NCBI GenBank assembly: GCA_050290065.1
Contig: JBNKGY010000001.1
Location: forward strand, 16,103-80,102
Length of the DNA: 64,000 nucleotides
Source: Marinilabiliaceae bacterium
GTDB taxonomy: Bacteria; Bacteroidota; Bacteroidia; Bacteroidales; Marinilabiliaceae
Direction: 5' to 3'
The notes under the pieces are model-generated. The model saw nothing but the letters and a program-made list of their open reading frames with translations. It searched no databases and was not told the DNA's origin. How positions within the stretch are numbered: position 1 is the first letter of the stretch; each line of letters begins with the position of its first letter. A program made the translations under genes and the position numbers. This document shows, piece by piece, positions 21,058 through 39,584 of the stretch.

Positions 21058-21206
21058 TGTCTTTTATCTTTTCCGTTCTACCAATCGTTAAGTTATTTTT
21101 TTTTGAGAATTGATTTTTCAACAATTTATAAACAAAAAAAGAAACCTATTATTAATAAACCCGTAACAAGTGGGAAGGAGAACAATTAATTTTATTGGAT
21201 AGTCTT

Positions 21207-21719: not shown

Positions 21720-21735
21720 TACTAAGTAAAGATCT

Positions 21736-23430: not shown

Positions 23431-23448
23431 TCAAAGTAATTTAAAGTT

Positions 23449-23760
23449 ATGGATGTACCATTTTCGGTTGATATAAAAAATAATAAAGACCTGATTACAA
23501 TTCTTGTATCTGGTGAGTTAATTATCAATCATATTCAAAAAATCAAATCTGTATTTTTAGAATCTTTGGACTTTTCCAAAAACCTGAGTATAAAAGTTAC
23601 AAACCCTACATCTATTGATATTACCTTTATTCAATTGTTATGCTCCATTAAAAAGGCATTTACAGATAAGGGGTTTGAATTTAATTTAGAAGGTACCTTT
23701 AGTGAAGATGTGTACAGTTTAGTATCAAATGCAGGATTTAACGATCTATTTAAACTATAG
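23449..23760 (+). CDS. STAS (anti-sigma-antagonist-like) protein
   Basis: VSGELII, SIDITFIQLL; sits at the STAS position typical of F8-like che operons. Confidence 0.75.
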   Translation: MDVPFSVDIKNNKDLITILVSGELIINHIQKIKSVFLESLDFSKNLSIKVTNPTSIDITFIQLLCSIKKAFTDKGFEFNLEGTFSEDVYSLVSNAGFNDLFKL

Positions 23761-23779
23761 AAATTAATTTTAACAAATT

Positions 23780-24145
23780 ATGGCTAAAACAGTTCTTATT
23801 GTTGACGATTCAGAAAGCATCAGGGAAGTAGTAAACTTTACCCTACAAAACGAAGGATATAACGTTTTGGTTGGCGTTGATGGTGAAGACGCTTTACAAT
23901 TCCTTGATGGTAGAAGTATCGATATTATTATTACTGACCTTCATATGCCGAACTTAGACGGATTAGGACTAATTCGTAAAGTTAGAGAAATTGAGGAGTA
24001 TAAGCATATCCCAATATTGTTTTTAACAACTGAATCTCAGGCAGGAAAAAAAATGGAGGCTAAACAAGCAGGGGCAACAGGTTGGATTATTAAACCTTTT
24101 GTTCCGGCAAAATTGCTTAGTGCTATTTCAAGAGTATTGAGATGA
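23780..24145 (+). CDS. cheY: CheY response regulator
   Basis: LIVDDSESIR, IITDLHMPNLDG, FLTTES, WIIKPF. Confidence 0.92.
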   Translation: MAKTVLIVDDSESIREVVNFTLQNEGYNVLVGVDGEDALQFLDGRSIDIIITDLHMPNLDGLGLIRKVREIEEYKHIPILFLTTESQAGKKMEAKQAGATGWIIKPFVPAKLLSAISRVLR

Positions 24146-24537
24146 TGGAGGAAATAAAGAAGTCTTTTATTAAAGAATCAATAAAAGATTTGGAACAAAT
24201 AGAATGCTCTCTGGACTTTAGTGAAGGAGTAAATGTTGATCAAAGTCTTATTGAGAAGGTTTTCACAACTACACATAACATTAAAGGAACAGCTCCAATG
24301 TTGGGTATTGATAATTTAGATCATATTGTCAAACCTATGGAATTGGTTTATGGAGAACTTCGTAATGGAAAACTTCTTTATTCCGAGGATATTGTTATAA
24401 ATACAAAAACACTAATTCCCGTTATAAAGTCGGAATTATGTACTAATCAACAACATACAATTGACTCAAAAGACGTTAACCAATCGTTACGTTTTTTTGA
24501 TTCTCTAATAGCAAAAAAAATGCATAAGCATGATTGA
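24142..24537 (+). CDS. Stand-alone Hpt protein resembling the CheA P1 domain
   Basis: F..ES..DL..IE, VF...HNIKGTAPMLG aligns with IFRAMHSLKGGGAMFG of the adjacent CheA. Confidence 0.75.
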   Translation: MMEEIKKSFIKESIKDLEQIECSLDFSEGVNVDQSLIEKVFTTTHNIKGTAPMLGIDNLDHIVKPMELVYGELRNGKLLYSEDIVINTKTLIPVIKSELCTNQQHTIDSKDVNQSLRFFDSLIAKKMHKHD

Positions 24538-26560: not shown

Positions 26561-26569
26561 GTGTAAATT

Positions 26570-27028
26570 ATGGAAGGCGATTTTAAAACATTAATATCCT
26601 TTAGCTTGGGTGATCAAACATTTGCGTTTGATAGTCTTAAAGTGCGAAATATATTACCATATGAAGGGACGGCTACAAAAGTTCCAAATTCAAAGGATTT
26701 TATTTTGGGTGTATTCAATTTACACGGTAATATTGTTCCTATTACTGATTTGCGAGCAATAATGAAGTTAGAGCAAGTTGATTACACAAAAGATACCTCA
26801 ATTATTGTTGTATCTCCGGAAGATAAATTAGAATCACAATTTGGAATTGTTGTTGATCTGGTAAAAGAAGTTTTTGAAGTTCAGTTAGATAAAATTGAGT
26901 CATCATCATTTCAGAAAGGAATGGGGCTTATTGAAACATTTGAGGGAACAATAAGGGAAAAAGATGAATTTATACATCTCATTGATTTAATGCACGTTAT
27001 TTCGCAAATTGAAAGTAAAAAAATTTAG
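26570..27028 (+). CDS. cheW: CheW coupling protein
   Basis: F.LG...FA, T.VPN...FILGVFNLHGNIVPITDLR, GIVVD.V.EV. Confidence 0.9.
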   Translation: MEGDFKTLISFSLGDQTFAFDSLKVRNILPYEGTATKVPNSKDFILGVFNLHGNIVPITDLRAIMKLEQVDYTKDTSIIVVSPEDKLESQFGIVVDLVKEVFEVQLDKIESSSFQKGMGLIETFEGTIREKDEFIHLIDLMHVISQIESKKI

Positions 27029-27030
27029 TA

Positions 27031-27510
27031 ATGGAAGAAGCAAACAATTCATATCTTTCTTTTAAAGTTGGAACTGAAACATTTGCTGTGCATGTAAGCA
27101 AAGTAAATGAGATACGTGAATATGAAAAACCACGTAAGGTGCCTGAGGCGATGTCGTTCATGAAAGGTGTTATTGATCATCGAGAGGAAGTCGTACCAGT
27201 TATAGATACAGGAATTAAGTTTGGACTAAATCCGGTAGAAATAACTCCACAAACCTGCATTATCGTTATAGATGTATTAAAAAAAGATACAAATTCTGTA
27301 TTTAAAGTAGGCATATTGACTGATGCCGTAACGGATGTATTTGAATCAGAGGATAGCAATTTTAAAAAAATTGAACGTGATTATACACCAAATTACATTC
27401 AAGCTACCTATAAATTGAATGATAATTTCTATTTGATACTAAATTCTGATGAAGTATTTAGTTTAAATGAAATTGTTGGAATGAGTGAAGCAATACAAGA
27501 AATAAAGTAA
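27031..27510 (+). CDS. cheW: Second CheW coupling protein
   Basis: YLSFKVG.E.FAV.V.KV.EI, VP....FMKGVI..R.EVVPVID, VGILTDAV.DV. Confidence 0.9.
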   Translation: MEEANNSYLSFKVGTETFAVHVSKVNEIREYEKPRKVPEAMSFMKGVIDHREEVVPVIDTGIKFGLNPVEITPQTCIIVIDVLKKDTNSVFKVGILTDAVTDVFESEDSNFKKIERDYTPNYIQATYKLNDNFYLILNSDEVFSLNEIVGMSEAIQEIK

Positions 27511-27513
27511 CGA

Positions 27514-28383
27514 GTGGAAAAGGCCAACACATACTCAAAGGATTTAGATTGCTTTAAGGCTGAATTATCTACCAAAGATTTTGAAGCTTTTAGTCAATTT
27601 ATTTATTCTGAGTTTGGTATTAAAATGCCACCTGTAAAAAGAATAATGTTGCAAGGGCGTTTACTGAAAAGGATAAGAAATTTAAATATGAATTCCTATT
27701 CAGAGTATAAAGACTATTTGTTCAGTAAAGAGGGACAGAAGGAAGAGATATTTAATTTTTTGAATGTTGTAACCACTAATAAAACTGATTTTTTTAGAGA
27801 ACCAATACATTTTGACTATTTAAAGAGCTCTGTTTTGCCGGAATTTCTTTCAAAAGATAATAGAGAACCTTTTAAAATTTGGAGTGCAGGTTGTTCAAGT
27901 GGTGAAGAACTGTATACCCTAGCTATTACTCTGAATGAATTTAAAAGTATAAATGTAGGCTTTAATTATTCCATGTTAGGGACTGATATTTCTCAAAATG
28001 TATTATCAAAAGCAGCAAAAGGTATCTATCCACTAAATAAGGTGGATATTATTCCAATAGATTTAAAAAAGAAGTATTTATTGAAAAGCAAGGATGCCAA
28101 CAACCAAACTGTAAAGGTACGGCCAGAGCTTCAGCGAAATTTGAATTTAAAATATCTGAATCTTATGGATTCCAGTTATTCAGCTATAAATGAAAAATTT
28201 GACGCAATTTTTTGTAGAAATGTATTAATATATTTCGACCGGGCGACACAGGAAAGTGTGATTAATAAATTAAGTTCTTATTTAAAGCCAGGAGGATATT
28301 TTTTTATAGGACATTCTGAATCGTTAACAGGAATGAATGTTCCACTAGAACACATTAAACCAACTATTTTCAGAAAAAAATAA
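27514..28383 (+). CDS. cheR: CheR methyltransferase (chemotaxis type)
   Basis: TTNKTDFFRE..HF, IWSAGCSSGEE.Y, GTDIS, CRNVLIYFD, GHSESL. GTG start. Confidence 0.95.
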   Translation: MEKANTYSKDLDCFKAELSTKDFEAFSQFIYSEFGIKMPPVKRIMLQGRLLKRIRNLNMNSYSEYKDYLFSKEGQKEEIFNFLNVVTTNKTDFFREPIHFDYLKSSVLPEFLSKDNREPFKIWSAGCSSGEELYTLAITLNEFKSINVGFNYSMLGTDISQNVLSKAAKGIYPLNKVDIIPIDLKKKYLLKSKDANNQTVKVRPELQRNLNLKYLNLMDSSYSAINEKFDAIFCRNVLIYFDRATQESVINKLSSYLKPGGYFFIGHSESLTGMNVPLEHIKPTIFRKK

Positions 28384-28400
28384 AGCACAAAAAGAGAACC

Positions 28401-29303
28401 ATGAATAATTTATCAGACAGACAATTACTTAAGGAGCTTAGACAAAGGCTTGAACATGGTAAGAATAGTGAGAAGGAAATTAAGGAATTGACTCACGAAT
28501 TACAAAGTGTGTCAAAAAAGCTTAAGGATTCAGAAGCACTTAAGAGTCATTTTATATCAAATATCTCAAATGAAATAGTAAATCCGTTTACTTCGATATT
28601 AGGACTGTCAAAGGCAATTCTATCTGTTGAAAAGCATGATTGGAAAAAGGTTGTGTCAATGGTAGCATTGATTCATTCAGAAGCATTCAACCTTGATTTT
28701 CAATTGAAGAATATTTTTGTGGCCGCTAAAATTGAAGCAGGTGAAATAGCCCCTAATATTGCTAAGGTTAATATTAGAAGCTTATTACAAACGGTTGTTG
28801 ACTCTTTTAATATAATTTCCCGTAAAATGGGAATTTCAATTGATATTCAATTTAATATTGAACATGGTTTTGGAAAGAATTTTTACTTTAAAACTGATTC
28901 AGAAAAACTTAAGCTTATCCTTAGTAACCTTATTAATAATGCATTAAAATATAGTTATAAAGATAGTAAGGTAATTATTTCAATATGGCTGGATGATGAA
29001 GATGTTTTGAAAATCTCTGTTCAAGATTATGGAACCGGAATTTCTGAAAAAAATCAGAAAACAATATTTGAACGATTTAAAAGATTAGATACCGGTATCA
29101 ATTCAATAAATCGTGGTCATGGTCTTGGTCTTTCAATTACAAAAGCATTATTGGATACATTGAGTGGAGATATTGAAATAGCGAGTCAAAAAGGTGAAGG
29201 ATCAACCTTTACTATAAGTGTGCCGGAGGCCAAAAATATTGTGGACGGATTTAGTGGAGAAGGAAATGATATATTCTTTGATGAAGAGGACGAGATTTTT
29301 TAA
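28401..29303 (+). CDS. Sensorless HisKA-HATPase kinase-like protein lacking the phospho-acceptor His
   Basis: H-box reads FISNISNEIVNP (N57 in place of H); N box NLINNALKYS, G1 DYGTGI, F box IFERF and G2 GHGLGL are intact. Confidence 0.8.
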   Translation: MNNLSDRQLLKELRQRLEHGKNSEKEIKELTHELQSVSKKLKDSEALKSHFISNISNEIVNPFTSILGLSKAILSVEKHDWKKVVSMVALIHSEAFNLDFQLKNIFVAAKIEAGEIAPNIAKVNIRSLLQTVVDSFNIISRKMGISIDIQFNIEHGFGKNFYFKTDSEKLKLILSNLINNALKYSYKDSKVIISIWLDDEDVLKISVQDYGTGISEKNQKTIFERFKRLDTGINSINRGHGLGLSITKALLDTLSGDIEIASQKGEGSTFTISVPEAKNIVDGFSGEGNDIFFDEEDEIF

Positions 29304-29313
29304 TGGTGAATAG

Positions 29314-29784
29314 ATGAATCAATATTTACAACATTTTTTATATCCATCCTCTCTTTTCGTCAGCAAAGAACCTTTTTTGGTTAAAACCATATTAGGCTCG
29401 TGTGTTGCAATATGTTTATGGGATTCACGATTGAAAATAGGAGGTATTAATCATTACATGCTACCACATTGGAATGGTAATGATTTAGCTTCGCCAAAAT
29501 ATGGAAATATTGCAATAGACAAGCTAATTGATAAATTGCTTTTTCATGGATCAAGAACCGAAGATTTGCAAGCGAAAATATTTGGAGGTGGAGAATTAAT
29601 GCAAACAGGAAATTCAAGAACATTAATTGGAGAACGAAATATTCGTGTGGCCAGAATAATGCTTGAAGAAAAAAATATTCCAATTGTTGCTTCCAGTACA
29701 GGTGGAAAAAGAGGTCGAAAAATCATATTTTTTACCGATACTGGAGAAGTGAGACATAAATTATTGGATAAAAAGAACCCATAA
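29314..29784 (+). CDS. cheD: CheD chemoreceptor glutamine deamidase
   Basis: TILGSCVA, GGINHYMLP, KIFGGG, IGERN, GG..GRKI.F. Confidence 0.93.
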   Translation: MNQYLQHFLYPSSLFVSKEPFLVKTILGSCVAICLWDSRLKIGGINHYMLPHWNGNDLASPKYGNIAIDKLIDKLLFHGSRTEDLQAKIFGGGELMQTGNSRTLIGERNIRVARIMLEEKNIPIVASSTGGKRGRKIIFFTDTGEVRHKLLDKKNP

Positions 29785-29875
29785 ATGATAATTTGATTCT
29801 TAAATAAACTAAGCATCATTTTTTTTTATATATTTCTTATTAATAACATTCATTTTAATAAGATAACCTTGTACT

Positions 29876-30955
29876 ATGCGGATGAAAAAAATTCGGGTAT
29901 TAGTAGTTGATGATTCAGCTGTAGTTAGACAAAGCCTTTCAAGTATTTTAGGTTCGGACCCAGAAATAGAAGTGATGGGTACAGCGGCTGACCCTATTAT
30001 TGCTGTAAAAAAGATTATGAAGGAGATACCTGACGTTATTACGTTAGATATCGAAATGCCAAGAATGGATGGGTTAACATTCTTGCGTAAAATTATGTCA
30101 CAACACCCAATTCCTGTTGTGATTATCTCATCACTTACAAGCGAAGGTACAGAGGTAGCGATGAAAGCACTTGAGTATGGTGCTGCCGAAATTATTGGTA
30201 AACCGGCGATGAATGCCGCTAAATTTATTAATGAATCAAAGATTGTGATCTGCGATGCTGTTAAAGCAGCAGCGCATGTGAAATTATCGAGAAAGAAAAT
30301 TAAAGTACCGCCTACCAATATAGAAGTAAAACCTAAATATAGTGCTGACGTTATTCTTGAAAAAGCTTCCGTGTCAAATAGAATATCGGTAACAGATAAA
30401 GTTATTGTATTAGGAGCTTCAACAGGAGGAACTGAAGCCATCAGATCCTTTCTTAAAAATCTACCCGCAAAAATGCCTGGAATTGCAATTGTTCAGCATA
30501 TGCCTGAAGGATTCACAAGATCATTTGCTAACAGTTTAAATAACATCTGTAATTTAGAAGTTAAGGAGGCAGAAAATGGCGATAAACTTTATCAAGGTAG
30601 AGTTCTTATTGCGCCGGGAAATTACCATATGCTGTTAAAAAGAGTAGGTAAAGAGTATTTTGTGGAGGTAAAAGAAGGACCTTTGGTAAACAGGCATCGT
30701 CCGTCTGTGGATGTGCTATTTAGAAGTGCTTCAAGATATGCAGGTAATAATGCAATGGGTATTTTGTTGACCGGAATGGGAAATGATGGTGCAAAGGGGT
30801 TGTTGGAACTTAAGGAATCAGGTGCAGAAACAATAGCCCAGGATGAACAAAGTTCTGTTGTTTATGGTATGCCAAAGGAAGCAGCAAAACTTGGAGCTGC
30901 CAATCATATTTTAGGATTAGAGCAGATTGCTCCTTTCCTAATAAAGTCTCTTTAA
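29876..30955 (+). CDS. cheB: CheB methylesterase (REC plus esterase)
   Basis: [18 protein letters not shown]; triad motifs [19 protein letters not shown]. Confidence 0.96.
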
Positions 30956-31061: not shown

Positions 31062-32939
31062 GTGAAAAAGCTTGATTTAAATAACATATTAAGAAAATAT
31101 ACTTTTAGAGGAATTCTTCTTGGATTTTTTATTGTTCTAATTGTGTTTCTGTTGAATTTAAGTTCAACTGTTTTTATGCAAACAAACAGGACGTTTGCTG
31201 ATATGTTATATCTGTTCCCAGGAATGTGGATTTTATTGGTCTTACCTTTTATTACCGGACTTTTTGGATATCTGTTTGCATTAAATTTTGTAAAAATAAT
31301 TAGGAAGCAACGAAAATACATTAAAAGTGAAACCAAAAGAGCAGATAAGGTTCTAAAATTTATTAATAATTTACGTCAGGGTAATTTTAGCAGTACAGAG
31401 TTAGTTACGGATAAAAAAGATCAATTAAGCAGATCACTACTAAAATTAAGAGATTATCTTGTTAAAAGTAAAAACGAACAAGAACAAAGAAGAATAGAGG
31501 AAGAACAACGAAATTGGGTAACTCATGGGGTAGCTCAATTTGCTGAAATACTGCGTAAGAATAATGATAATCTGGAAGAACTTTCATTTAATATTATTAG
31601 TTACCTGGTTAATTACTTAAATATTAATCAGGGTGGTTTTTATTTGTTAAATGAGAATGCAAAAGGAGACAGGTTCTTTGAATTATCAGCATGTTTGGCT
31701 TTTGATAGAAAAAAATATGCAGATAAAATAATTCAATGGGAAGAAGGTTTAATAGGAAGATGTGGGATTGAAAAAGGTACTATTTATATGACTGATGTAC
31801 CCAATGATTATATTACAATAACATCTGGTTTAGGTCAAACCAATCCGTCTGCCATTCTATTAGTTCCTTTAAAGGTGAATGATGAAATTTATGGAGTTAT
31901 CGAGTTGGCTTCATTTTCTGAGTTTCAACCTTTTGAAATAGAATTTGTTGAGCGTACGGCAGAAAGTATTGCATCTACCATATCTACGGTTCAAATCAAT
32001 ATTCAGACAACAAAATTACTTCGTGAAACTCAAATTCAAGCTGAAAGAATGGCTCAGCAGGAAGAAGAGTTACGTCAAAACCTTGAAGAAATGCAGGCTA
32101 CTCAAGAAGAGTCTGATCGTAGAGAAGTTGAAATGAAAGGTATTCTTGAAGCTATTGATAACTCAGCTATTAGTTGTGAGTTTGCTGTGGATGGATCATT
32201 GATTTCGGTTAATCAACTATTTTTACAAACATTCAAATATCTTCCTGAAGAAATAGAAGGTCAGAATTTAAAAATATTGATTTTTCAGGATGATGTAGAA
32301 GACCTGAGTAAAACGCTTTCTGAACTTAAAGGAGGGCATAATTTTAAGGGAAGAGTAAGAAGAAGAACAAAACTTGGAGAAGAAATATTTCTGCTTACAA
32401 CATATACACCTGTAATAGATAATCAAGGAGACATTATCAAGATTTTGAGTCTCGAAAATGATGTTACAGATCAAGTTTACATGGAAGAGCAAATGAAAAG
32501 CTCCAAAGAGGAGCTTGGAAAAATGCTGGAACAAGCCAGAGACGAGATGAAAGAGCAGTTTAAAGAAATTGAAGATGTTAAAATTCGAAACGAAAAAACT
32601 CTTGAAGGTGCTCTTGATGCAATCATCACAACAAATGAAGAGGGGATCCTTGAATTTTTTAATGCAGCGGCAGAAAAACTCTGGGGATATGAAAGAAATG
32701 AAGTGTTGGGAGAACATATCTCCCTGTTATTTTCTGATGATACCGCTAAGAATGATCAATTTGTGAAGGCCTATGTTACAACTGAAGAATCTAAAATTAT
32801 AGGGGAAAGAAAAGAAGTACCAATAAAGAATAAATTTGGAGATGAAATACCTGTTTTATTTCTTCTTTCTGAGGCTCAGGTTGGAGGGAATAAGTCTTTT
32901 ACAGCGTTTATTCAAAATGTAGAAGTAGAGTTATTTTAA
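31062..32939 (+). CDS. Membrane GAF-coiled coil-PAS-PAS protein with no enzymatic output domain
   Basis: Two TM segments; GAF (EGLIGRC..EK, TSGLG..P, LLVPL, GVIELAS); QQEEELRQNLEEMQATQEE helix; two PAS-like repeats (N.AAEKLWGY); ends VEVELF. Confidence 0.8.
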   Translation: MKKLDLNNILRKYTFRGILLGFFIVLIVFLLNLSSTVFMQTNRTFADMLYLFPGMWILLVLPFITGLFGYLFALNFVKIIRKQRKYIKSETKRADKVLKFINNLRQGNFSSTELVTDKKDQLSRSLLKLRDYLVKSKNEQEQRRIEEEQRNWVTHGVAQFAEILRKNNDNLEELSFNIISYLVNYLNINQGGFYLLNENAKGDRFFELSACLAFDRKKYADKIIQWEEGLIGRCGIEKGTIYMTDVPNDYITITSGLGQTNPSAILLVPLKVNDEIYGVIELASFSEFQPFEIEFVERTAESIASTISTVQINIQTTKLLRETQIQAERMAQQEEELRQNLEEMQATQEESDRREVEMKGILEAIDNSAISCEFAVDGSLISVNQLFLQTFKYLPEEIEGQNLKILIFQDDVEDLSKTLSELKGGHNFKGRVRRRTKLGEEIFLLTTYTPVIDNQGDIIKILSLENDVTDQVYMEEQMKSSKEELGKMLEQARDEMKEQFKEIEDVKIRNEKTLEGALDAIITTNEEGILEFFNAAAEKLWGYERNEVLGEHISLLFSDDTAKNDQFVKAYVTTEESKIIGERKEVPIKNKFGDEIPVLFLLSEAQVGGNKSFTAFIQNVEVELF

Positions 32940-32954
32940 ATTAAAAAATAATAA

Positions 32955-33797
32955 GTGGGGGACATAACATTTAAAACGTATTTAGAAGAGCTAAAGAAGC
33001 ATACACCATATAATTTTTGTGATTACTCAGACAATTCAATTCAAAGAAGAATAGATAAAGTATTGAAGGATCACAATATGGATATGGATCAGCTTTTGTA
33101 TAAAACAAAAACTGATGCGTATTTTGTTGAAAGCCTGGTTGATGAAATTACGGTAAACACAACTGAGCTTTTTAGGAATCCTGAAACTTGGGAATATTTA
33201 TATAAGAACGTATTACCACTTCTTAACAAAAAGAAAACTATTAATATTTGGCATGCTGGATGTTCAACAGGTCAGGAAGTTTATTCTAATTTGATATTGT
33301 TGAATGAATTAGGATTAATGGACAGGGTAAAAGTGGTTGCAACTGACATTAATCAAAAGGTGATAAGAGTTGCGAAAAATGCAGAATATAATTATAGTTA
33401 CAATAGTAGTTATATTGAAGCTTATAAAACTTTGATGGATAAAGTTAATCCAAAGGCTAATAAATTTGAATATTATTGTGATATAGATGAGCATTCAGAT
33501 GTTTTTAAATTCAAAAAATTTATTGCTGAGAAGCCTATTTTTAAAAGACATGATTTGGTAGCAGAACCAATTCCCTTTTATCAGAAATTTGATATCATAT
33601 ATTGTCGTAACGTATTAATATATTTTAATCCAGAGTTACAAATGAATATTGTCCGCAAATTCTTTGATAAGTTGTATGATGGAGGAGTATTAGTTTTAGG
33701 TTCGCATGAGGCATTACATGGTTTTTTTAAAACCAGATTTATTAAGCACGGAATGGTCTATACAAAAAGTAATACATTTCATTTTAAATATAAATAG
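32955..33797 (+). CDS. cheR: CheR-family methyltransferase (intact motifs)
   Basis: ITVNTTELFRNP, IWHAGCSTGQEVYS, ATDIN, FDIIYCRNVLIYF, GSHE. Confidence 0.9.
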   Translation: MGDITFKTYLEELKKHTPYNFCDYSDNSIQRRIDKVLKDHNMDMDQLLYKTKTDAYFVESLVDEITVNTTELFRNPETWEYLYKNVLPLLNKKKTINIWHAGCSTGQEVYSNLILLNELGLMDRVKVVATDINQKVIRVAKNAEYNYSYNSSYIEAYKTLMDKVNPKANKFEYYCDIDEHSDVFKFKKFIAEKPIFKRHDLVAEPIPFYQKFDIIYCRNVLIYFNPELQMNIVRKFFDKLYDGGVLVLGSHEALHGFFKTRFIKHGMVYTKSNTFHFKYK

Positions 33798-33800
33798 AAA

Positions 33801-34607
33801 ATGGCAGTTGTTCCTACTATTTACGATATCAGGGAAATAACACCTTTGTTAAAGGAGGTACTAAATATTGATTTGTATAATTTTACGTTGTCTTTTTTGC
33901 GTAGGAGATTTGCGTTTGTTTTTAGTCAGTTAAATATTAAAAGTGTAGAAGGATTTAAAGAAGATATTAAGAAAGGTAAATTAATTGATGAATTTAGCTA
34001 TGCTTTTTCTGTTCCTGATACTGAAATGTTTAGGGATCCATCATTCTGGAGAACCCTTAAGAATAAAATTTTACCTCAATTTGGAGAAAAGCCATTTAAT
34101 ATTTGGATGCCTGATTTGGTTTCAAATGAAGAACTTTTTTCATTATTAGTTATATTGGAGCAGGATAGGCTAATCGATCAAGTAAAGATTTATTGCAACG
34201 TGGATTGTTCATTAAGGTCATTAGAACTGAAGAAAGGTTCTATTAATGGCAAAAGTATAGAAATTTCCATGCAGAATTTTAAAAGATTAGAACTAGATAG
34301 TCAATTTGAAGATTACTTTACATATGATAATAAATTTATTTATATAAAAGAAGAATTACTTAAGAATATTGAATACATAAATGGTAATTTCTTTGTAAAC
34401 GGTCCGACAGAAAATATATCTTTTTGTTTATATCGAAATAGAATGATTTACTTTAATTTAAAATTACAACAATCAGCTGAAGAGGAACTAGTGAAATATA
34501 TAGAAAAAGGCGGGTTTTTAGCTTTGGGGATTAAAGAGAAAATCAGCCAATCTAATAGAGATTTATTTGATGAAGTTGACTCTAATGAACAAATCTATAA
34601 AGCTTGA
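33801..34607 (+). CDS. Degenerate CheR-like protein (probable pseudo-methyltransferase)
   Basis: Keeps TEMFRDPSFW and RN.MIYF...LQ, but the SAM loop reads IWMPDLVSNEE instead of IWxAGCSTGEE. Confidence 0.75.
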   Translation: MAVVPTIYDIREITPLLKEVLNIDLYNFTLSFLRRRFAFVFSQLNIKSVEGFKEDIKKGKLIDEFSYAFSVPDTEMFRDPSFWRTLKNKILPQFGEKPFNIWMPDLVSNEELFSLLVILEQDRLIDQVKIYCNVDCSLRSLELKKGSINGKSIEISMQNFKRLELDSQFEDYFTYDNKFIYIKEELLKNIEYINGNFFVNGPTENISFCLYRNRMIYFNLKLQQSAEEELVKYIEKGGFLALGIKEKISQSNRDLFDEVDSNEQIYKA

Positions 34608-34618
34608 TTAAACAATAA

Positions 34619-35194
34619 ATGAATAATAAAAGAGCGTCATATTATAAAGCAGTAGTAATTGGTGGTTCTGCAGGTAGTTTTTCAGTTGTATCAAAAATTT
34701 TGGCCAATATAAAACCTGATTTTGAATATCCAATTGTGGTATGTTTACATCGTTTAAAGCATATCCGTACAGGATTATTAGAAGGGCTTAAAATTAAATC
34801 AAAACTTCCGGTAATAGAGCCTTACGATAAAGATAGTCTCAAAGGTGGAAATGTTTATTTGGCACCTTCAAATTATCATATGTTTGTTGAGTTTGATTCA
34901 ACCATTTCATTGACGGGTGAGGATGTGTTAAATCATAGCAGACCATCGATTGATTATACTTTTATATCATCGGCAACTTCATTTCGTGAGAAAATGATAG
35001 GAATTTTATTAACAGGAGCTAATAAAGATGGTGCTTTGGGAATGAAGGAAGTATTTCATAAAAGAGGATATACAATAGTGCAGGATCCGAATACTTGTGA
35101 TGTAGATACAATGCCAAAATCAGCTCTTCAATTATTTAATCCAGATGAAGTATTATCGCCAGATGCAATTATTGATTTTTTGAATAATCTTTAA
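34619..35194 (+). CDS. cheB: Stand-alone CheB methylesterase (no REC domain)
   Basis: IGGSAGS (Ser), CLHR (His), TGANKDGA (Asp), SRPSID, QDP. Confidence 0.88.
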   Translation: MNNKRASYYKAVVIGGSAGSFSVVSKILANIKPDFEYPIVVCLHRLKHIRTGLLEGLKIKSKLPVIEPYDKDSLKGGNVYLAPSNYHMFVEFDSTISLTGEDVLNHSRPSIDYTFISSATSFREKMIGILLTGANKDGALGMKEVFHKRGYTIVQDPNTCDVDTMPKSALQLFNPDEVLSPDAIIDFLNNL

Positions 35195-35198
35195 AGAG

Positions 35199-35957
35199 AT
35201 GTTAATGAATAAAAAAGAATTATTTCGATTATATATATTAGCAAGTCTTACGTTTACGATGGCCTTGATTAAGTATTTATTTGAGGATAAATATTTTATT
35301 TTTGAAATTTTGTCGTTCATACTTTTCTTAGGTATTATATATTTTGGAGATAAACTTATTAGGGTCAGAACAATTGAGAAAATTCAATTTAATAGAGAAA
35401 AAGAGAAGATAAATAGTAGTTATGAAGAAAAGATAAATCAATTAAATAATACGATTGAGCAATTAACAAAGGAGCAATCAGAACGACTTATCTTAGCTAA
35501 TGAAGTTGAATTAATTGGAGATAAAATCAATGATAGTATTAATAATATACAGCATAAGGATGAGTTGGCAAATCAGTTGTTAATTCAATTTTCTAAATAT
35601 TATGAAATTGGAATAGGAATATGTTATTTATTGTCAGAACATTCTGGAAAATTGAGCGTAAAAGGTGTCTATGGAATTCTGGATGAAGAAAAACCGACAG
35701 ATGTTGAAGTAACTGATGGATTACATGGACAATCAATTTCTGATAGAAAACCAATCATAATCCAGGATATTGATGAGAACTATTTTAATATTGAGTCTTG
35801 TTTGGGTTCTTCAAAGCCTAAGCATTTGTATTTATTACCAATTACAAAAAATGAAACCGTTATTGGTTTAATTGAATTAGCTACATTTAAAATCATTAAT
35901 ATTGAAAAGCATTGGCAAATAATCAATGATAAAATTGCAAATGTACTTATCTCATAA
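35199..35957 (+). CDS. Membrane coiled-coil-GAF protein
   Basis: Two TM segments, then a coiled coil and a GAF (DGLHGQ..., ESCLG..KP, LYLLPI, GLIELAT). Confidence 0.75.
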   Translation: MLMNKKELFRLYILASLTFTMALIKYLFEDKYFIFEILSFILFLGIIYFGDKLIRVRTIEKIQFNREKEKINSSYEEKINQLNNTIEQLTKEQSERLILANEVELIGDKINDSINNIQHKDELANQLLIQFSKYYEIGIGICYLLSEHSGKLSVKGVYGILDEEKPTDVEVTDGLHGQSISDRKPIIIQDIDENYFNIESCLGSSKPKHLYLLPITKNETVIGLIELATFKIINIEKHWQIINDKIANVLIS

Positions 35958-35966
35958 TGTGTTAAC

Positions 35967-38576
35967 ATGTTGATGAAAAGAATGATTAAGAACATTAAAA
36001 AATATATGGATTTCTCTATCCTTCAGGAACGAGATCGCTTTTTTATTATTATTAGTGTTATACTAGTTTTGTTATTGGTATGGGCAGGATTTATAAATTT
36101 TACTGGTTATCTGTTTACAATAGATTCAATTCTTAGTATTCATACTTCATGGTTAACTTGGTTTATTGATGCAATCATAGCTTTAATTCCTGTTACTTTT
36201 GTTGTTTTAATTAATTATGATCGTGAGACAAAGAAAAAATATAAAAAGGAAATAACTCGTTTAAAAGAAGGATTAAATTCTAACATTCAAATTGCGAACT
36301 TAATACGTAAAGGTGACTTCAATTCCATTTTAAATTATAAAAGTGATAATTCTGAAACTCTAGTTAGTCTTGCTAAAGATCTGCTTGAAACCAATCAGAA
36401 AGAGGAAGAGTTAAGATGGATTACAAAAGGAAAAGAACTCATCAATGATATTTTGCGAACATACAGATCTATTGATGAACTATCCATTGAACTTCTTAAA
36501 GGTATCATTACCTATAGCGGCGGTGCGCAGGGGGCATTTTATATATTAGAGGGAGATAAATTAGTTAGTCGGGCAACCTATGCTTTTAATAAACAAAGGT
36601 TTGTAAAACAAGAATATCATATTGGGAAAGGATTAGTCGGTCAGGTTGCATTCGAAAAGCAAATGATATACAGAACTGAAATTCCTGACGATTATTTTAC
36701 AATTACCTCTGGAATATTAGGCGATCAAAAACCAAGAAGTCTTGTCATATTGCCTTTATTGCAAGAGGAGGAATTGCAAGGAATAATAGAACTTGGATTT
36801 TTAAATGATCATTTTCCAACTTATAAATTAAATTTTGCAGAGGAATTGAGTAGTATGATTGGGCGAACCATTTATGCTCAAAAAATAAATGCTAAAACGG
36901 AGTATCTATTAAAAGAGTCTCAGGAAATGACTGTTACTCTTAGGCATAATGAAGAAAAATTAAAGGAAAGTGCCCAGGAAATGATGATTGCCCAGGAGGA
37001 TTTGGAAAAATCAAATGAACTACTGGAAACGAAAATTCAAGAGGTTGAAAATGGAAGAAAGAGGTTAGTGGCCTTACTAACAAATGCCTCTGAATTTATT
37101 TCAATTTATGATGAAAACCAAAGATTATTATTCGAAAGTCCTTCAGTGAAAAGAATATTAGGGTATAATGATTCTGATAAAGTTTCCGGAATGGACCCCG
37201 ATATGTTAACACCTAGAGGCTATAGAACCATTAATAATTTATTTACATATTTAAAACAAACGCCTGGAGGAGAGAGTGTTGCACAATATTCATACTTAAA
37301 AAAGAGTGGGGAAAAATTGTTTCTTGAAACTAAAGGAAAAAATTTACTTCATGATCAAGCTATTAAAGGAATAATCTTTAATACTCAGGATATTACCGAA
37401 AGAATTAGAGCAGAGAAAGAAGAACGGATGAAAAGTCGGATGCAATCACTTTCCGAAAATTCTCCGGATATGATTATGCGTATCAACACTTCTGGTAAGT
37501 TAGTATATGCAAATCCTGCAGTTAGTAATTTTACAGGTATTCCTATAGGAGAAATAACAAAGAAAAGAGTTAATGAACTTCAGATTGATGAAAGATTTAT
37601 TGATTTTGTTAATCATGTTCTGGTAAAAGTTAAAAAGGTACATGAACAAATAAATGAAGAAATAGAAGTTATTTCTCAGTATGGTAACCAGATAATGGAA
37701 ATAAAAGCTATTCCTGAATTGAATTCTGATAAAATATTGGAGTCAGTTCTTTTTGTGGCTCATAATATTACAGAGGTTAAAAAGATTGAACAAGAGATCA
37801 AAGAAAAAAATAAAAAAATATCTGATAGTATCAATTATGCACAAAGAATTCAAACTTCGATATTGCCAGATACCAATTTTATACAACGGCATTTTCCAAG
37901 ATCTTTTATCTTTTATCGTCCCAAAGATGTTGTTAGTGGTGATTTTCCATGGTTCGTCAAAAAAGATGAAACTTTTTATGTTGCAGCCGTAGACTGTACT
38001 GGTCATGGTGTACCTGGTGCATTATTATCTTTTATAGGGTATTTCTTACTCAATAATATAGTTAATATTGATGATGGATTTAATGCTGCCCATATATTAG
38101 AACATTTACATCAAGGTGTTCGAACTACATTAAAGCAAAATGAAGAAGGTAATAATGGTCGCGACGGGATGGATTTGGCTTTATGTAAAATAGACAAAAA
38201 AAATAAAGTTATTCAATTTGCCGGGGCTCATAATCCATTATATTTGCTGAGAAAAGGAGAATTGATAGAATATAAAGGAACACGTAAGGGGATTGGAGGA
38301 AAACCTTTATTAAAAAAACGTGAAAAGGATTTTGAAAATCATGAAATCCAATATCAGGATGGGGATAAGATTTTTATTTTTTCTGATGGTTTACCTGATC
38401 AGTTAGGTGGAGAAAAAAGAAAAAAGTATCAATCTAAACGAATTAGGGAAGCGCTAACTGAAAAAGAAGATCTGACAATGGCTCATTTTTCTCGACATTT
38501 TTCATCTGATTTTTATGAATGGATGGGTGATGAGAAACAAGTTGATGATGTTTTACTTATTGGAATTGAATTGTAA
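35967..38576 (+). CDS. SiaA-like PP2C/SpoIIE Ser/Thr phosphatase with TM-GAF-coil-PAS-PAS input
   Basis: SINYAQRIQ.SILP, PKDVVSGDFPW, AVDCTGHGVPGA, DGMD, FSDG..DQ.GG, DDVLLIG. Confidence 0.9.
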   Translation: MLMKRMIKNIKKYMDFSILQERDRFFIIISVILVLLLVWAGFINFTGYLFTIDSILSIHTSWLTWFIDAIIALIPVTFVVLINYDRETKKKYKKEITRLKEGLNSNIQIANLIRKGDFNSILNYKSDNSETLVSLAKDLLETNQKEEELRWITKGKELINDILRTYRSIDELSIELLKGIITYSGGAQGAFYILEGDKLVSRATYAFNKQRFVKQEYHIGKGLVGQVAFEKQMIYRTEIPDDYFTITSGILGDQKPRSLVILPLLQEEELQGIIELGFLNDHFPTYKLNFAEELSSMIGRTIYAQKINAKTEYLLKESQEMTVTLRHNEEKLKESAQEMMIAQEDLEKSNELLETKIQEVENGRKRLVALLTNASEFISIYDENQRLLFESPSVKRILGYNDSDKVSGMDPDMLTPRGYRTINNLFTYLKQTPGGESVAQYSYLKKSGEKLFLETKGKNLLHDQAIKGIIFNTQDITERIRAEKEERMKSRMQSLSENSPDMIMRINTSGKLVYANPAVSNFTGIPIGEITKKRVNELQIDERFIDFVNHVLVKVKKVHEQINEEIEVISQYGNQIMEIKAIPELNSDKILESVLFVAHNITEVKKIEQEIKEKNKKISDSINYAQRIQTSILPDTNFIQRHFPRSFIFYRPKDVVSGDFPWFVKKDETFYVAAVDCTGHGVPGALLSFIGYFLLNNIVNIDDGFNAAHILEHLHQGVRTTLKQNEEGNNGRDGMDLALCKIDKKNKVIQFAGAHNPLYLLRKGELIEYKGTRKGIGGKPLLKKREKDFENHEIQYQDGDKIFIFSDGLPDQLGGEKRKKYQSKRIREALTEKEDLTMAHFSRHFSSDFYEWMGDEKQVDDVLLIGIEL

Positions 38577-38602
38577 CGTATACGAACTAAATATTATTAG
38601 TA

Positions 38603-39178
38603 ATGGGAAATGCTCAAGATAATCATAGTTTTCTGGATTTTGCTTACCAGCTGTACCGGACTATGAAAACGAATGAAATCAGTCTTGTTTATGAAGGAGA
38701 AGTAACTCAGGAGATTACAAAAACTTTTACTTCATTAACAGAAAAAAGTCTGGCAAAAAGTGAAGAGTCAAATGCTGTTCAGCGAAAAGTATTTAACGTA
38801 ATGGTTGAATGTTTACAAAATATTAGTAAACATGCCGATTCATTATCTGAAGATGATGAAAATGAACGCAGGGGAATTGTAATGGTTAGTAAAGGTGAAG
38901 ATAGCTATAAAATTATTACAGGTAATGTAATTAGAAATGAAAAAGTACCTGGTTTAAGAGAAAACCTGGAGCAGGTCAATTCTCTTGATAAGGAGGGGCT
39001 TTCAAAGTTATTTAAAACCCAAATGCGTGAAGGTAAAATTTCCGATAAAGGAGGTGCAGGTCTTGGTTTAATTGACATTGCAAAGAAAACAGGAAGTGTA
39101 CTAACATACCAGTTTAAAGAATTAAATGAGGAAGTATCATTTTTTATTCTTACATCTACAATTAAACGAAATAATTAA
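38603..39178 (+). CDS. SiaB-family (DUF6272-like) GHKL Ser/Thr kinase
   Basis: YEGE..Q, RKVFNVMVECLQNISKH, IITGN.I, GGAGLGLIDIAKK. Confidence 0.85.
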   Translation: MGNAQDNHSFLDFAYQLYRTMKTNEISLVYEGEVTQEITKTFTSLTEKSLAKSEESNAVQRKVFNVMVECLQNISKHADSLSEDDENERRGIVMVSKGEDSYKIITGNVIRNEKVPGLRENLEQVNSLDKEGLSKLFKTQMREGKISDKGGAGLGLIDIAKKTGSVLTYQFKELNEEVSFFILTSTIKRNN

Positions 39179-39203
39179 AAAACTAATATAAAATATCAAA
39201 ACC

Positions 39204-39584
39204 ATGGAAGTTATCAATATTCAAGGAACAGATGATACTCCTAATGTAATTTTAGATAAGGACAGCGGGAAATTTGAAATTTCTGGACGTTCATTACCAG
39301 AGGACGTAAATATGTTTTATGAGCCTATTATGAAATGGATAGATGGATACTCCGAAAGTCCTAATGAGAATACTGAATTTAATTTTAAGCTAGAGTACTT
39401 TAATACTGCATCTTCAAAAATAATACTGGATATTTTACTAAAGTTCGAAGAAATAGTTGAAAATGGTAATGATGTTAAAATCAGATGGCATTATCACGAA
39501 GAAGAGGAAGATATGCTTGAAGCTGGTGAAGAGTATGCAGATATAGTTGAAATACCATTTGAATACGAAGCTTACACTGATTAA
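39204..39584 (+). CDS. SiaC-family (DUF1987) phospho-switch protein
   Basis: T..TP.V, ISGRSLPED...FY.P, LEYFNTASSK (Thr68), W.Y...EEDM.E.GEEY. Confidence 0.88.
   Translation: MEVINIQGTDDTPNVILDKDSGKFEISGRSLPEDVNMFYEPIMKWIDGYSESPNENTEFNFKLEYFNTASSKIILDILLKFEEIVENGNDVKIRWHYHEEEEDMLEAGEEYADIVEIPFEYEAYTD

What the first reader, a model, noticed from the sequence alone, without database searches (positions are those of the whole stretch)
32020..32125. MCP-like methylation motif in a non-MCP GAF receptor
Seen: the helix after the GAF domain reads AQQEEELRQNLEEMQATQEE. EEMQAT (32085-32102) fits the downstream half of the MCP methylation consensus [EQ][EQ]xxA[ST] and resembles IEEMVAN in this window's own MCP. 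The gene lies immediately upstream of two cheR genes and a cheB. The phosphatase has the paralogous but diverged QEMMIAQED. Inference: this is the CheR substrate. Caution: E/Q-rich coiled coils can match such a short motif by chance.
Basis: partly seen in the sequence, partly recalled or inferred. Interest (0 to 1): 0.72.

Follow-up and report, generated by a model that had tools for sequence, protein, structure and literature searches.

The report
Methylatable signalling helix after GAF domain
A membrane sensor that is not a chemotaxis receptor carries an invariant glutamate-rich helix right after its GAF domain. It sits beside its own CheR/CheB pair, so it is very probably switched by reversible glutamate methylation, as the Bacillus cereus stress kinase RsbK is.

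Summary
EEMQAT (aa 342-347, nt 32085-32102) lies in one long helix (aa 290-357) that leaves the GAF domain of a 625-aa TM-GAF-helix-PAS-PAS protein with no output domain. The stretch QQEEELRQNLEEMxATQEES is invariant in 120 orthologues.

It is not an MCP helix by descent. It is the Bacteroidota version of the "methylatable S-helix" of RsbK-type sensors. Anchored on LLxE[ST]Q, it aligns in heptad phase with the helix of GAF hybrid kinases that sit next to CheR/CheB, and with a Bacillus RsbK orthologue.

The adjacent CheR (32955) groups with RsbM-type CheRs, not with CheRs from MCP/CheA clusters. The same operon occurs in Cytophagales without any CheA, CheW or MCP: GAF-helix sensor, CheR, REC-less CheB, small GAF, GAF-helix-PP2C, SiaB, SiaC.

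The reasoning from the MCP consensus is not: the A[ST] half is absent from CheR-linked kinases, and the conserved feature is heptad-spaced Glu pairs. Window E336 and E343 are the best candidate sites.

The principle is known. The output-less receptor family, the paired esterase and the SiaB/SiaC output are a new variant. Methylation itself is untested.

The parts
31062..32939 (+). Target gene: TM - linker helices - GAF - S-helix - PAS - linker helix - PAS. 625 aa, no output domain.
   Evidence: ORF and translation. Pfam GAF 170-307, PAS 376-470 and 512-586. AF2 secondary structure. 120 orthologues of about 625 aa in Marinilabiliaceae.
31569..31982 (+). GAF domain (aa 170-307).
   Evidence: Pfam GAF_2 1.9e-10.
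31929..32132 (+). Single continuous helix aa 290-357, running from the last GAF helix through the motif. This is the S-helix.
   Evidence: AF2 model: H290-357, pLDDT about 60-80 up to aa 349 and below 50 from 350 in the monomer.
32016..32120 (+). Conserved core LLRETQIQAERMAQQEEELRQNLEEMQATQEESDR (aa 319-353). It contains three heptad-spaced EE[LMS] units, preceded by a degenerate ERM unit in the same phase.
   Evidence: Invariant in orthologues. Family consensus from 372 copies. In-phase alignment with CheR-linked kinases and RsbK.
32064..32069 (+). E335-E336. E336 is the positional equivalent of residue 439 of the colinear Bacillus RsbK orthologue (alignment position 17).
   Evidence: Glu at position 17 in 27/27 CheR-linked kinases.
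32085..32102 (+). E343 is alignment position 24, equivalent to RsbK residue 446, and is the best candidate methyl acceptor.
   Evidence: Glu at position 24 in 63/63 family copies and 21/27 kinases, and retained in the PP2C paralogues.
32106..32111 (+). E349-E350, the next heptad-spaced Glu pair.
32481..32516 (+). Degenerate second copy of the motif, MEEQMKSSKEEL (aa 474-485), in the PAS1-PAS2 linker helix.
32955..33797 (+). CheR_B1, an RsbM-type protein-glutamate methyltransferase. The equivalents of E. coli CheR R98, the STG loop, D154 and Y235 are present.
   Evidence: Pfam CheR 3.6e-40. Alignment. Tree and BLAST.
33801..34607 (+). CheR_B2, a diverged CheR paralogue and probable pseudo-enzyme. 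Found only in the Marinilabiliaceae version of the operon.
   Evidence: Pfam CheR 4.6e-15. SAM loop WMPDLVSNEE.
34619..35194 (+). CheB_B, a methylesterase catalytic domain without a receiver domain. The Ser/His/Asp triad is present.
   Evidence: Pfam CheB_methylest 1.4e-46. Alignment to E. coli CheB S164/H190/D286.
35199..35957 (+). Small TM-coiled coil-GAF protein, a conserved member of the operon.
   Evidence: Pfam GAF_2. Present in all Cytophagales operons.
35967..38576 (+). TM-GAF-S-helix-PAS-PAS-PP2C (SpoIIE) phosphatase, a paralogue of the target and SiaA-like.
   Evidence: Pfam. Synteny.
36906..37019 (+). S-helix of the phosphatase, LLKESQEMTVTLRHNEEKLKESAQEMMIAQEDLEKSNE. It is diverged and only the position-24 Glu (QEM) is kept. 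Cytophagales orthologues keep LRQNAEEMQATQEEL.
38603..39178 (+). SiaB-like kinase (DUF6272).
   Evidence: Pfam DUF6272 5e-43. PDB 6kko_A 4.8e-15.
39204..39584 (+). SiaC-family phosphoprotein (DUF1987).
   Evidence: Pfam SiaC 8e-42. PDB 6kko_C 1.2e-17.

Best explanation
The helix after the GAF domain (aa about 319-353) is an RsbK-type methylatable signalling helix.

Proposed working. The membrane sensor dimerises through this coiled coil. CheR_B1 (32955) transfers methyl groups from SAM to the second Glu of the heptad-spaced EE pairs. E343 in EEMQAT and E336 are the most likely sites, and E350 is possible. The REC-less CheB_B (34619) removes the methyl groups. Neutralising these charges changes helix packing and so changes the signal passed to the PAS domains.

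The sensor has no output domain. It most likely acts together with its paralogue, the GAF-S-helix-PAS-PP2C phosphatase (35967), and the small GAF protein. That would set the phosphorylation state of SiaC against the SiaB-like kinase, a partner switch.

Status of each step. Shown: the anatomy, the conservation, the synteny, the clade of the CheR, and the in-phase homology with RsbK-type helices. Established elsewhere: RsbM methylates the RsbK S-helix, and SiaA/B/C is a PP2C-kinase-phosphoprotein switch. Inferred: that methylation happens here, which residues accept it, and how the sensor couples to the phosphatase.
For: (1) The motif is invariant in 120 orthologues and is the longest invariant run in the protein.

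(2) Gaps of 3-26 bp separate the genes from 31062 to 39584. The same order is found in Thermophagus. It is also found, with a single CheR and without CheA, CheW or MCP within 10 kb, in 7 Cytophagales loci.

(3) CheR_B1 scores 135 bits against the Bacillus RsbM orthologue, 83 bits against the window's own MCP-cluster CheR and 75 bits against E. coli CheR. An NJ tree separates the sensor-linked CheRs from the MCP-cluster CheRs in 100/100 replicates.

(4) Of 40 metagenome loci of at least 8 kb centred on CheRs of this clade, 35 have a GAF protein, 38 an HK, 30 a CheB and 0 a CheA, CheW or MCP.

(5) Anchored on LLxE[ST]Q, the helices share heptad phase: EE[LM] at alignment positions 9-11, 16-18 and 23-25 in the CheR-linked kinases, in the RsbK orthologue and in the window protein (ERM at 9-11 in the window).

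(6) The Bacillus sp. N5-665 rsbK-rsbM-rsbY-sigB locus has the same numbering as published RsbK residues H505, D782/783, D827 and M829 (PMC4574943).

(7) RsbM methylates the RsbK S-helix in vitro and this represses sigma-B (PMC4574943, PMC12848376).

(8) CheR_B1 and CheB_B keep their catalytic residues.

(9) In Cytophagales the PP2C paralogue carries the same motif.
Against: There are no biochemical data for this protein or for any member of its family.

The motif is equally invariant in about 70 of 80 loci that have no CheR within 10 kb. That fits scattered receptors serving one core, but it equally fits a docking or structural role.

The window operon abuts a complete MCP-CheA cluster, so cross-action on the MCP cannot be excluded.

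CheB_B has no receiver domain, so no feedback route is evident.

The specific RsbK sites (E439, E446) are recalled from Chen et al. 2012, a paper not held in the library. Only "methylation on the S-helix" is verified.

The CheR tree has only four MCP-type references, and the metagenome set was picked by similarity to a Cytophagales CheR.
Confidence: 0.62

Rival explanations
1. The helix is only a structural signalling or docking helix. Its invariance would reflect coiled-coil transmission between GAF and PAS, or binding of a common partner such as the phosphatase's homologous helix. CheR_B1 and CheB_B would act on MCPs such as 21736 or MCPs elsewhere in the genome.
For: Many family members end 20-40 aa after the motif, as expected if the helix is the output or docking surface. 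The motif is invariant in loci without a nearby CheR. In Marinilabiliaceae the operon is always adjacent to an MCP-CheA cluster. No similarity to MCP methylation helices was found by profile search.
Against: The MCP cluster has its own CheR, CheB-REC and CheD. CheR_B1 is of RsbM type and not of MCP-cluster type. The operon exists in Cytophagales with no MCP, CheA or CheW nearby. 0 of 40 loci of this CheR clade contain an MCP. Docking and methylation are not mutually exclusive.
Confidence: 0.17
2. Methylation occurs in this system, but the relevant acceptor is the PP2C phosphatase's own S-helix (36906-37019). The target gene would then be an accessory sensor that is not itself modified.
For: In Cytophagales the PP2C protein carries the canonical LRQNAEEMQATQEEL. 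As in RsbK, the modified helix would then sit in the protein that bears the catalytic output.
Against: In the window the PP2C helix has diverged (KESAQEMMIAQEDL, with Lys at position 17), while the target's helix is invariant. The sensor gene directly precedes cheR in every operon seen.
Confidence: 0.15
3. The match is a chance hit of a short pattern in an E/Q-rich coiled coil, with no functional link to the neighbouring cheR and cheB.
For: The pattern is short. 1.5-4% of shuffles of the helix match it, and a second loose match occurs at aa 476.
Against: The motif is invariant across orthologues and across 372 copies in a large family. Synteny with CheR/CheB is conserved in two orders. The helix is homologous in phase to RsbK-type helices.
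Confidence: 0.02

Closest known systems
RsbK-RsbM-RsbY module of Bacillus cereus. A CheR-type methyltransferase, RsbM, methylates the S-helix of the CHASE3-HAMP-GAF-S-helix-HK-REC kinase RsbK upstream of a PP2C partner switch (PMC4574943; PMC12848376; Chen et al. 2012, Environ Microbiol 14:2788, not held).
   Same: GAF domain followed directly by a heptad EE[LM] helix in the same phase. An adjacent CheR of the same clade (34% identity and 135 bits to a Bacillus RsbM orthologue). A PP2C phosphatase and a kinase/phosphoprotein partner switch downstream.
   Different: Here there is no histidine kinase or receiver domain, and the helix leads into PAS domains. The PP2C is fused to a paralogous sensor instead of a receiver domain. 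A dedicated REC-less CheB is present, whereas B. cereus has none for RsbK (PMC4574943). There is an extra degenerate CheR. The switch is SiaB/SiaC-type rather than RsbW/RsbV/sigma-B. The family motif LRQN[ML]EE[LM]xATQEE differs from RsbK's EELQxQxEEL.
GAF hybrid kinase - CheR - REC-less CheB - REC-HK operons. Examples are Agrobacterium tumefaciens pAtCFBP6626a and many metagenome loci. P. putida CfcA/CheR3 may belong here, but that link is from memory and unverified.
   Same: Same CheR clade, same REC-less CheB, and the same post-GAF helix LLEETQxQSEELQxQQEELxxxNEELEEQ in phase with the window helix.
   Different: Their output is phosphorelay (HK-REC-REC plus REC-HK), not PP2C/SiaB/SiaC. They lack the A[ST] half of the MCP consensus. 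Apart from RsbK, their methylation is to my knowledge untested.
Methylation helices of methyl-accepting chemotaxis proteins (E. coli Tsr/Tar MH1: [24 protein letters not shown]).
   Same: Heptad-spaced [EQ][EQ] pairs on a dimeric coiled coil, modified by CheR and CheB. EEMQAT and NMEELSAT resemble Tsr MEQLTAT.
   Different: No MCPsignal domain, no hairpin tip and no CheW or CheA partner are required. The upstream [ASTG][ASTG] half of the consensus is missing (RQNL). A profile search finds no MCP. The CheR is not of the MCP-cluster clade.
SiaA/SiaB/SiaC/SiaD network of Pseudomonas aeruginosa (PDB 6kko).
   Same: A PP2C phosphatase with an N-terminal membrane sensor, a SiaB homologue (E 5e-15) and a SiaC homologue (E 1e-17) in the same order.
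   Different: No SiaD diguanylate cyclase in the operon; the next gene is a TerB-ABC fusion. GAF/S-helix/PAS input and the CheR/CheB module are, to my knowledge, not part of the Pseudomonas system.
Signalling helix (S-helix) of Anantharaman, Balaji and Aravind 2006 (from established knowledge).
   Same: A roughly 40-70 residue coiled-coil connector between sensory and downstream signalling domains.
   Different: Generic S-helices conserve mainly the heptad core. Here nearly every position is conserved across paralogues, including predicted surface positions.

Membership tests
Methyl-accepting chemotaxis protein (MCP) | MCPsignal (PF00015) cytoplasmic hairpin domain | tested here: not met
   Pfam scan finds only GAF and PAS. 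The window's real MCP (21736-23430) scores 1e-32.
Methyl-accepting chemotaxis protein (MCP) | Full methylation consensus [ASTG][ASTG]xx[EQ][EQ]xx[ASTG][ASTG] | tested here: not met
   Only the downstream half (EEMQAT) fits; the upstream residues are R-Q-N-L. A profile of the motif finds no MCP in the PDB.
Methyl-accepting chemotaxis protein (MCP) | Genomic and functional coupling to CheA/CheW | tested here: inconclusive
   A CheA cluster is adjacent in Marinilabiliaceae, but the operon occurs without CheA or CheW in 7 Cytophagales loci.
RsbK-type methylatable S-helix sensor | GAF domain followed directly by a coiled coil with heptad-spaced Glu pairs (EE[LM]) | tested here: met
   In-phase alignment with 27 CheR-linked kinases and the Bacillus RsbK orthologue. 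Continuous helix aa 290-357.
RsbK-type methylatable S-helix sensor | Adjacent RsbM-type CheR methyltransferase | tested here: met
   CheR_B1 lies 15 bp downstream. It is in the sensor-linked clade in 100/100 NJ replicates. 135 bits to the RsbM orthologue against 83 bits to the MCP-cluster CheR.
RsbK-type methylatable S-helix sensor | Histidine kinase core and C-terminal receiver domain | tested here: not met
   No HisKA, HATPase or REC in the target. 53 of 55 representative family members are GAF+PAS only.
RsbK-type methylatable S-helix sensor | Experimentally shown Glu methylation of the helix | not testable with these tools
   Needs a biochemical assay or mass spectrometry. Shown only for B. 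cereus RsbK (PMC4574943).
SiaABC-type PP2C partner switch | PP2C phosphatase, SiaB kinase and SiaC phosphoprotein encoded together | tested here: met
   SpoIIE 2e-18, DUF6272 5e-43 and SiaC 8e-42. PDB 6kko chains A and C.
SiaABC-type PP2C partner switch | SiaD-like diguanylate cyclase target | tested here: not met
   None in the operon. The next gene is a TerB-ABC transporter fusion, also in Thermophagus. The rest of the genome was not searched.
CheR (active methyltransferase), for 32955 | Equivalents of E. coli CheR R98, the glycine-rich SAM loop, D154 and Y235 | tested here: met
   Alignment. The second copy, 33801, fails at the SAM loop.
CheB methylesterase, for 34619 | Ser164-His190-Asp286 triad; N-terminal receiver domain | tested here: inconclusive
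   The triad is met. The receiver domain is absent (191 aa), as in all sensor-linked operons.

The most novel reading that the evidence does not exclude
The invariant helix would define a large Bacteroidota family of output-less, MCP-like receptors: Cache, 4HB or HAMP sensor, then GAF, then one to nine [S-helix-PAS] units. These would form the methyl-accepting input layer of a CheA-independent, chemosensory-like pathway. Its core would be CheR, CheB, a PP2C phosphatase, SiaB and SiaC. Many scattered receptors would feed one core operon, with methylation giving adaptation or memory to a partner switch, possibly in gliding bacteria that lack flagellar chemotaxis.
Probability: 0.3. Interest if true: 0.85.

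Novelty: new variant of a known kind. Interest (0 to 1): 0.62.

Why it matters
Reversible glutamate methylation is usually treated as a hallmark of MCP/CheA chemosensory arrays. The one characterised exception, RsbK/RsbM, has a methyltransferase but no esterase.

This locus pairs both enzymes with sensors that lack both an MCP domain and a kinase, and it couples them to a PP2C/SiaB/SiaC partner switch. The same helix marks hundreds of output-less receptors in Bacteroidota. If it is methylated, three things follow:

- The orphan cheR/cheB genes of Cytophagales and Marinilabiliales get a concrete substrate.
- A precise pair of residues can be mutated.
- Adaptation by methylation would be shown to have been recruited to serine-phosphorylation signalling.

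The work also gives a simple sequence rule for recognising candidate non-MCP CheR substrates: LLxE[ST]Q followed by heptad-spaced EE[LM] after a GAF domain.

Tried and rejected
- **Direct homology to MCP methylation helices.** A profile of the motif against all PDB sequences gave only designed coiled coils and no significant MCP hit. Rejected.
- **Fusion of the motif to CheR, CheB or MCP domains.** None among 150 representatives or 55 Pfam-scanned members.
- **My initial recollection that CheB-CheR-PAS-HK fusion proteins carry a similar NEELQST repeat.** This was not tested, because no such protein surfaced in any search. It is left out of the argument.
It could not be done fairly, because both samples of homologues were selected through the motif itself. 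In the one sample that was unbiased with respect to the motif, the CheR-centred loci, the A[ST] half is absent.
- **Literature searches.** Searches for the motif string, for CheR with SiaC or DUF6272, and for CheR/CheB in Bacteroidetes found nothing on this family. The RsbK papers were found. Chen et al. 2012 and de Been et al. 2011 are not held, so the RsbK sites E439/E446 remain a recollection.
- **First bootstrap runs.** The first timed out and the second had invalid distances. They were replaced.
- **AF2 monomer.** It is only moderately confident (pLDDT 70.7, pTM 0.37) and says nothing about the dimer interface.
Full report
**What is there.** The finding lies in gene 31062-32939 (+), which encodes a 625-aa protein. 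Pfam finds a GAF domain (aa 170-307) and two PAS domains (376-470 and 512-586), with no MCPsignal, kinase, cyclase or other output domain. An AlphaFold2 monomer model built on 32 orthologues (mean pLDDT 70.7) shows N-terminal membrane and linker helices, the GAF fold, and then one uninterrupted helix from aa 290 to 357. A second long helix (469-514) joins PAS1 to PAS2. The quoted string AQQEEELRQNLEEMQATQEE is aa 331-350, and EEMQAT is nt 32085-32102, as stated. The comparison strings are also present: IEEMVAN in the window's MCP and QEMMIAQED in the phosphatase.

**Is it more than chance?** The short pattern alone is weak. 1.5% of shuffles of the 45-residue helix contain EExxA[ST], and 4% contain [EQ][EQ]xxA[ST]. 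Conservation is the real signal. In the 120 best database hits (64-100% identity, Marinilabiliaceae such as Plebeiibacterium, Labilibacter, Saccharicrinis, Carboxylicivirga and Thermophagus), QQEEELRQ-N-[LI]-EEM-x-ATQE[ED] is essentially invariant. It is the longest invariant run in the alignment.

A phmmer search with the 58-aa helix against 1.84 billion representatives gave 1212 hits at E<1e-3. The best 150 are almost all sensor-GAF-(motif-PAS)n proteins, with up to nine matching stretches per protein. From 372 copies the consensus is EE[LM]x[AS]QEEE[LM]RQN[ML]EE[LM]xATQEE[ML]xR. That is four heptad-spaced EE[LM] units, with R, Q, N, E, E, A, T and Q conserved in roughly 80-99% of copies. 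Pfam on 55 representatives shows GAF plus PAS in 53. Cache, HAMP or 4HB_MCP sensors occur in many of them. Only one has a SpoIIE domain, and no kinase, GGDEF, MCPsignal, CheR or CheB appears among the 25 families listed.

A scan of one genome per species found at least 447 confirmed motif stretches, and the 80 loci kept are virtually all Bacteroidota. In all 93 motif-bearing ORFs of those loci the motif directly follows a GAF domain, and many proteins end 20-40 residues after it. This is therefore a large family of output-less receptors whose most conserved element is this helix.

**Context.** Downstream, with gaps of only 3-26 bp, lie seven genes:

- CheR_B1 (32955)
- a diverged CheR_B2 (33801)
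- a CheB catalytic domain without a receiver (34619)
- a small TM-GAF protein (35199)
- a paralogous TM-GAF-helix-PAS-PAS-PP2C phosphatase (35967)
- a DUF6272 protein (38603)
- a SiaC-family protein (39204)

The last two match chains A and C of PDB entry 6kko, at E 5e-15 and 1e-17. From my knowledge of that entry these are P. aeruginosa SiaB and SiaC. The library labels chain A "putative serine phosphatase" and chain C a DUF1987 protein. CheR_B1 keeps the equivalents of E. coli CheR R98, the STG loop, D154 and Y235. CheB_B keeps Ser164/His190/Asp286. CheR_B2 has lost the SAM loop.

Upstream (21195-30955) is a complete chemosensory cluster with its own components: MCP, CheY, Hpt protein, CheA, two CheW, CheR, HK, CheD and CheB-REC. 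Thermophagus xiamenensis has the identical 20-kb arrangement.

**Independent lineages.** Seven of the 80 motif loci come from Cyclobacteriaceae, Chryseolinea, Pseudochryseolinea flava and Roseivirgaceae. They carry the same operon: motif sensor, CheR, REC-less CheB, small GAF, GAF-motif-PP2C, DUF6272, SiaC. None has CheA, CheW or MCP within 10 kb. There the phosphatase also carries the canonical LRQNAEEMQATQEEL, whereas the window's phosphatase helix has diverged. The CheR/CheB pair therefore travels with these sensors, not with MCPs. The remaining roughly 70 loci are "orphan" receptors, distributed like MCP genes relative to a che operon. At least two genomes show both a core operon and an orphan (L065/L073 and L022/L028).

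**What kind of CheR is this?** A metagenome scan seeded with the operon CheRs returned 80 loci. Of the 40 that are at least 8 kb long, 35 contain a GAF protein, 38 a histidine kinase, 30 a CheB and none a CheA, CheW or MCP. The typical order is [GAF-HK-REC-REC(-REC), about 1200 aa], CheR, REC-less CheB, [REC-HK]. An annotated example is on A. tumefaciens plasmid pAtCFBP6626a.

An NJ tree of 55 CheRs puts the following in one clade:

- the window's B1 and B2
- the Thermophagus copies
- the seven Cytophagales operon CheRs
- 40 kinase-linked CheRs

That clade is separate from the CheRs of MCP/CheA clusters (E. coli, window CheR_A, Thermophagus CheR_A and Dawidia) in 100 of 100 replicates. Only four MCP-type references were available, so this is indicative rather than definitive.

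**Link to a characterised system.** The literature search found that B. cereus RsbM, a CheR-type methyltransferase, methylates the hybrid kinase RsbK (CHASE3-HAMP-GAF-S-helix-HK-REC) on its signalling helix. This holds the sigma-B partner switch (PP2C RsbY, RsbV, RsbW) off. No esterase is involved there, and the authors report 127 RsbK-like kinases in 10 phyla (PMC4574943; also PMC12848376, which cites a genomic RsbK-CheR association noted by de Been et al.).

A tblastn hit in a 5.5-Mb Bacillus sp. N5-665 record gave a complete rsbK-rsbM-rsbY-sigB-rsbW-rsbV locus. Its 896-aa kinase has H505, D782/D783, D827 and M829 at exactly the positions published for RsbK. The helix after its GAF domain reads LLHESQAMTEELQVQSEELQTQAEELQMQAEELRTTNEQLE, with Glu pairs at 431/2, 438/9, 445/6 and 452/3. 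The adjacent RsbM orthologue compares as follows:

- 50-54% identical to the kinase-linked CheRs
- 42% to the Cytophagales operon CheR
- 34% (135 bits) to window CheR_B1
- 25-28% (80-92 bits) to MCP-cluster CheRs

**Homology of the helices.** When the sequences are anchored on the shared LLxE[ST]Q at the end of the GAF domain, three groups place EE[LM] at positions 9-11, 16-18 and 23-25. These are the kinase consensus (LLxETQxQAEELQxQQEELxxxNEELExQ), RsbK, and the window protein (LLRETQIQAERMAQQEEELRQNLEEMQATQEE, with ERM at 9-11). Position 17 is Glu in 27/27 kinases and position 24 in 21/27. In the Bacteroidota family the counts are 56/63 and 63/63. These positions are RsbK 439 and 446, and window E336 and E343. 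My recollection is that Chen et al. 2012 mapped RsbK methylation to E439 and E446. That paper is not in the library, so this point is unverified, although the numbers fall on the second Glu of two consecutive heptads. The PP2C paralogues keep only the position-24 Glu, which makes E343 the single best candidate.

**MCP-likeness.** E. coli Tsr reads [24 protein letters not shown], and EEMQAT or MEELSAT does resemble MEQLTAT. But three things count against descent from MCPs. The upstream half of the consensus is missing. A motif profile finds no MCP among solved structures. Only 1 of 27 CheR-linked kinases has [EQ][EQ]xxA[ST]. The resemblance is therefore best read as analogy, or a lineage-specific refinement. 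Membership in the MCP family fails on its defining domain.

**Mechanism proposed.** The sensor dimerises along the S-helix. CheR_B1 methylates, and CheB_B demethylates, the exposed Glu pairs (E343, E336 and perhaps E350). Charge neutralisation alters helix packing and hence the state passed to the PAS domains. Together with the paralogous phosphatase and the small GAF protein, the sensor then tunes dephosphorylation of SiaC against the SiaB-like kinase. The anatomy, conservation, synteny and clade assignment are shown. Methylation, the sites and the coupling are inferred by homology with RsbK/RsbM and SiaABC. I put this at about 0.6.

The main rival (about 0.17) is that the helix is purely a structural or docking element and that CheR/CheB serve MCPs. 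A second rival (about 0.15) is that the phosphatase helix is the true acceptor. Chance is effectively excluded.

**Novelty.** The principle, a CheR homologue methylating the post-GAF S-helix of a non-MCP sensor upstream of a PP2C partner switch, has been known since 2012. The following appear undescribed in the searchable literature:

- the acceptor being an output-less GAF-PAS receptor and a PP2C-fused paralogue
- a dedicated esterase, and hence reversibility
- a pseudo-CheR
- a SiaB/SiaC output
- the large Bacteroidota receptor family with an invariant helix, repeated up to nine times in a protein

Verdict: a real feature, a new variant of a known kind, of moderate to high interest.

Noticed in passing
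window 33801-34607: The second CheR has a diverged SAM-binding loop: WMPDLVSNEE against WSAAASTGEE in E. coli. The Thermophagus copy also lacks the D154 and Y235 equivalents. It looks like a conserved pseudo-enzyme, is present only in the Marinilabiliaceae form of the operon, and may be a substrate-binding adaptor.
   Followed up: partly
window 32481-32516 (aa 474-485): The PAS1-PAS2 linker helix holds a degenerate second copy of the motif, MEEQMKSSKEEL. It is partly conserved in orthologues (E475, K482, E484, L485 and G486 are invariant). It echoes the [motif-PAS] repeats of larger family members.
   Followed up: partly
P0122, P0127, P0149, P0150 (representatives): These are giant proteins of about 2000-2400 aa with one GAF domain and 6-9 matching stretches, each stretch being the near-identical helix that precedes a PAS domain, and with no detectable output domain. 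What such an array does is unexplained.
   Followed up: partly
L003 8738-19818 (Dawidia cretensis): A motif receptor with two motif copies sits directly upstream of CheY-CheA-CheW-MCP...CheR-CheD. Taken with the window's adjacency to a CheA cluster, this hints at cross-talk between S-helix receptors and CheA-type systems.
   Followed up: no
window 39615-42686: A 1023-aa TerB-domain/ABC ATPase/ABC-2 permease fusion follows SiaC after a 30-bp gap and is conserved at the same place in Thermophagus (L001). It could be the target of the SiaC switch, since no diguanylate cyclase is present.
   Followed up: no
window 21195-21719 and 28401-29303: The upstream che cluster begins with a DUF4154 (YfiR-like) protein before the MCP, by synteny with the Thermophagus locus L001. 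It also contains a small soluble histidine kinase between CheR and CheD. Both are conserved in Thermophagus.
   Followed up: no
L165 (NZ_CP093325.1, Bacillus sp. N5-665 'plasmid p1'): The record is 5.5 Mb and carries the chromosomal sigB/rsbK cluster, so it is a chromosome filed as a plasmid. It has almost no annotation in PLSDB.
   Followed up: partly
window 32268-32717 (-) and 29809-30441 (-): Antisense ORFs of 149 and 210 aa overlap the sensor and cheB genes. Their low-complexity translations suggest they are artefacts of the AT-rich opposite strand rather than genes.
   Followed up: no
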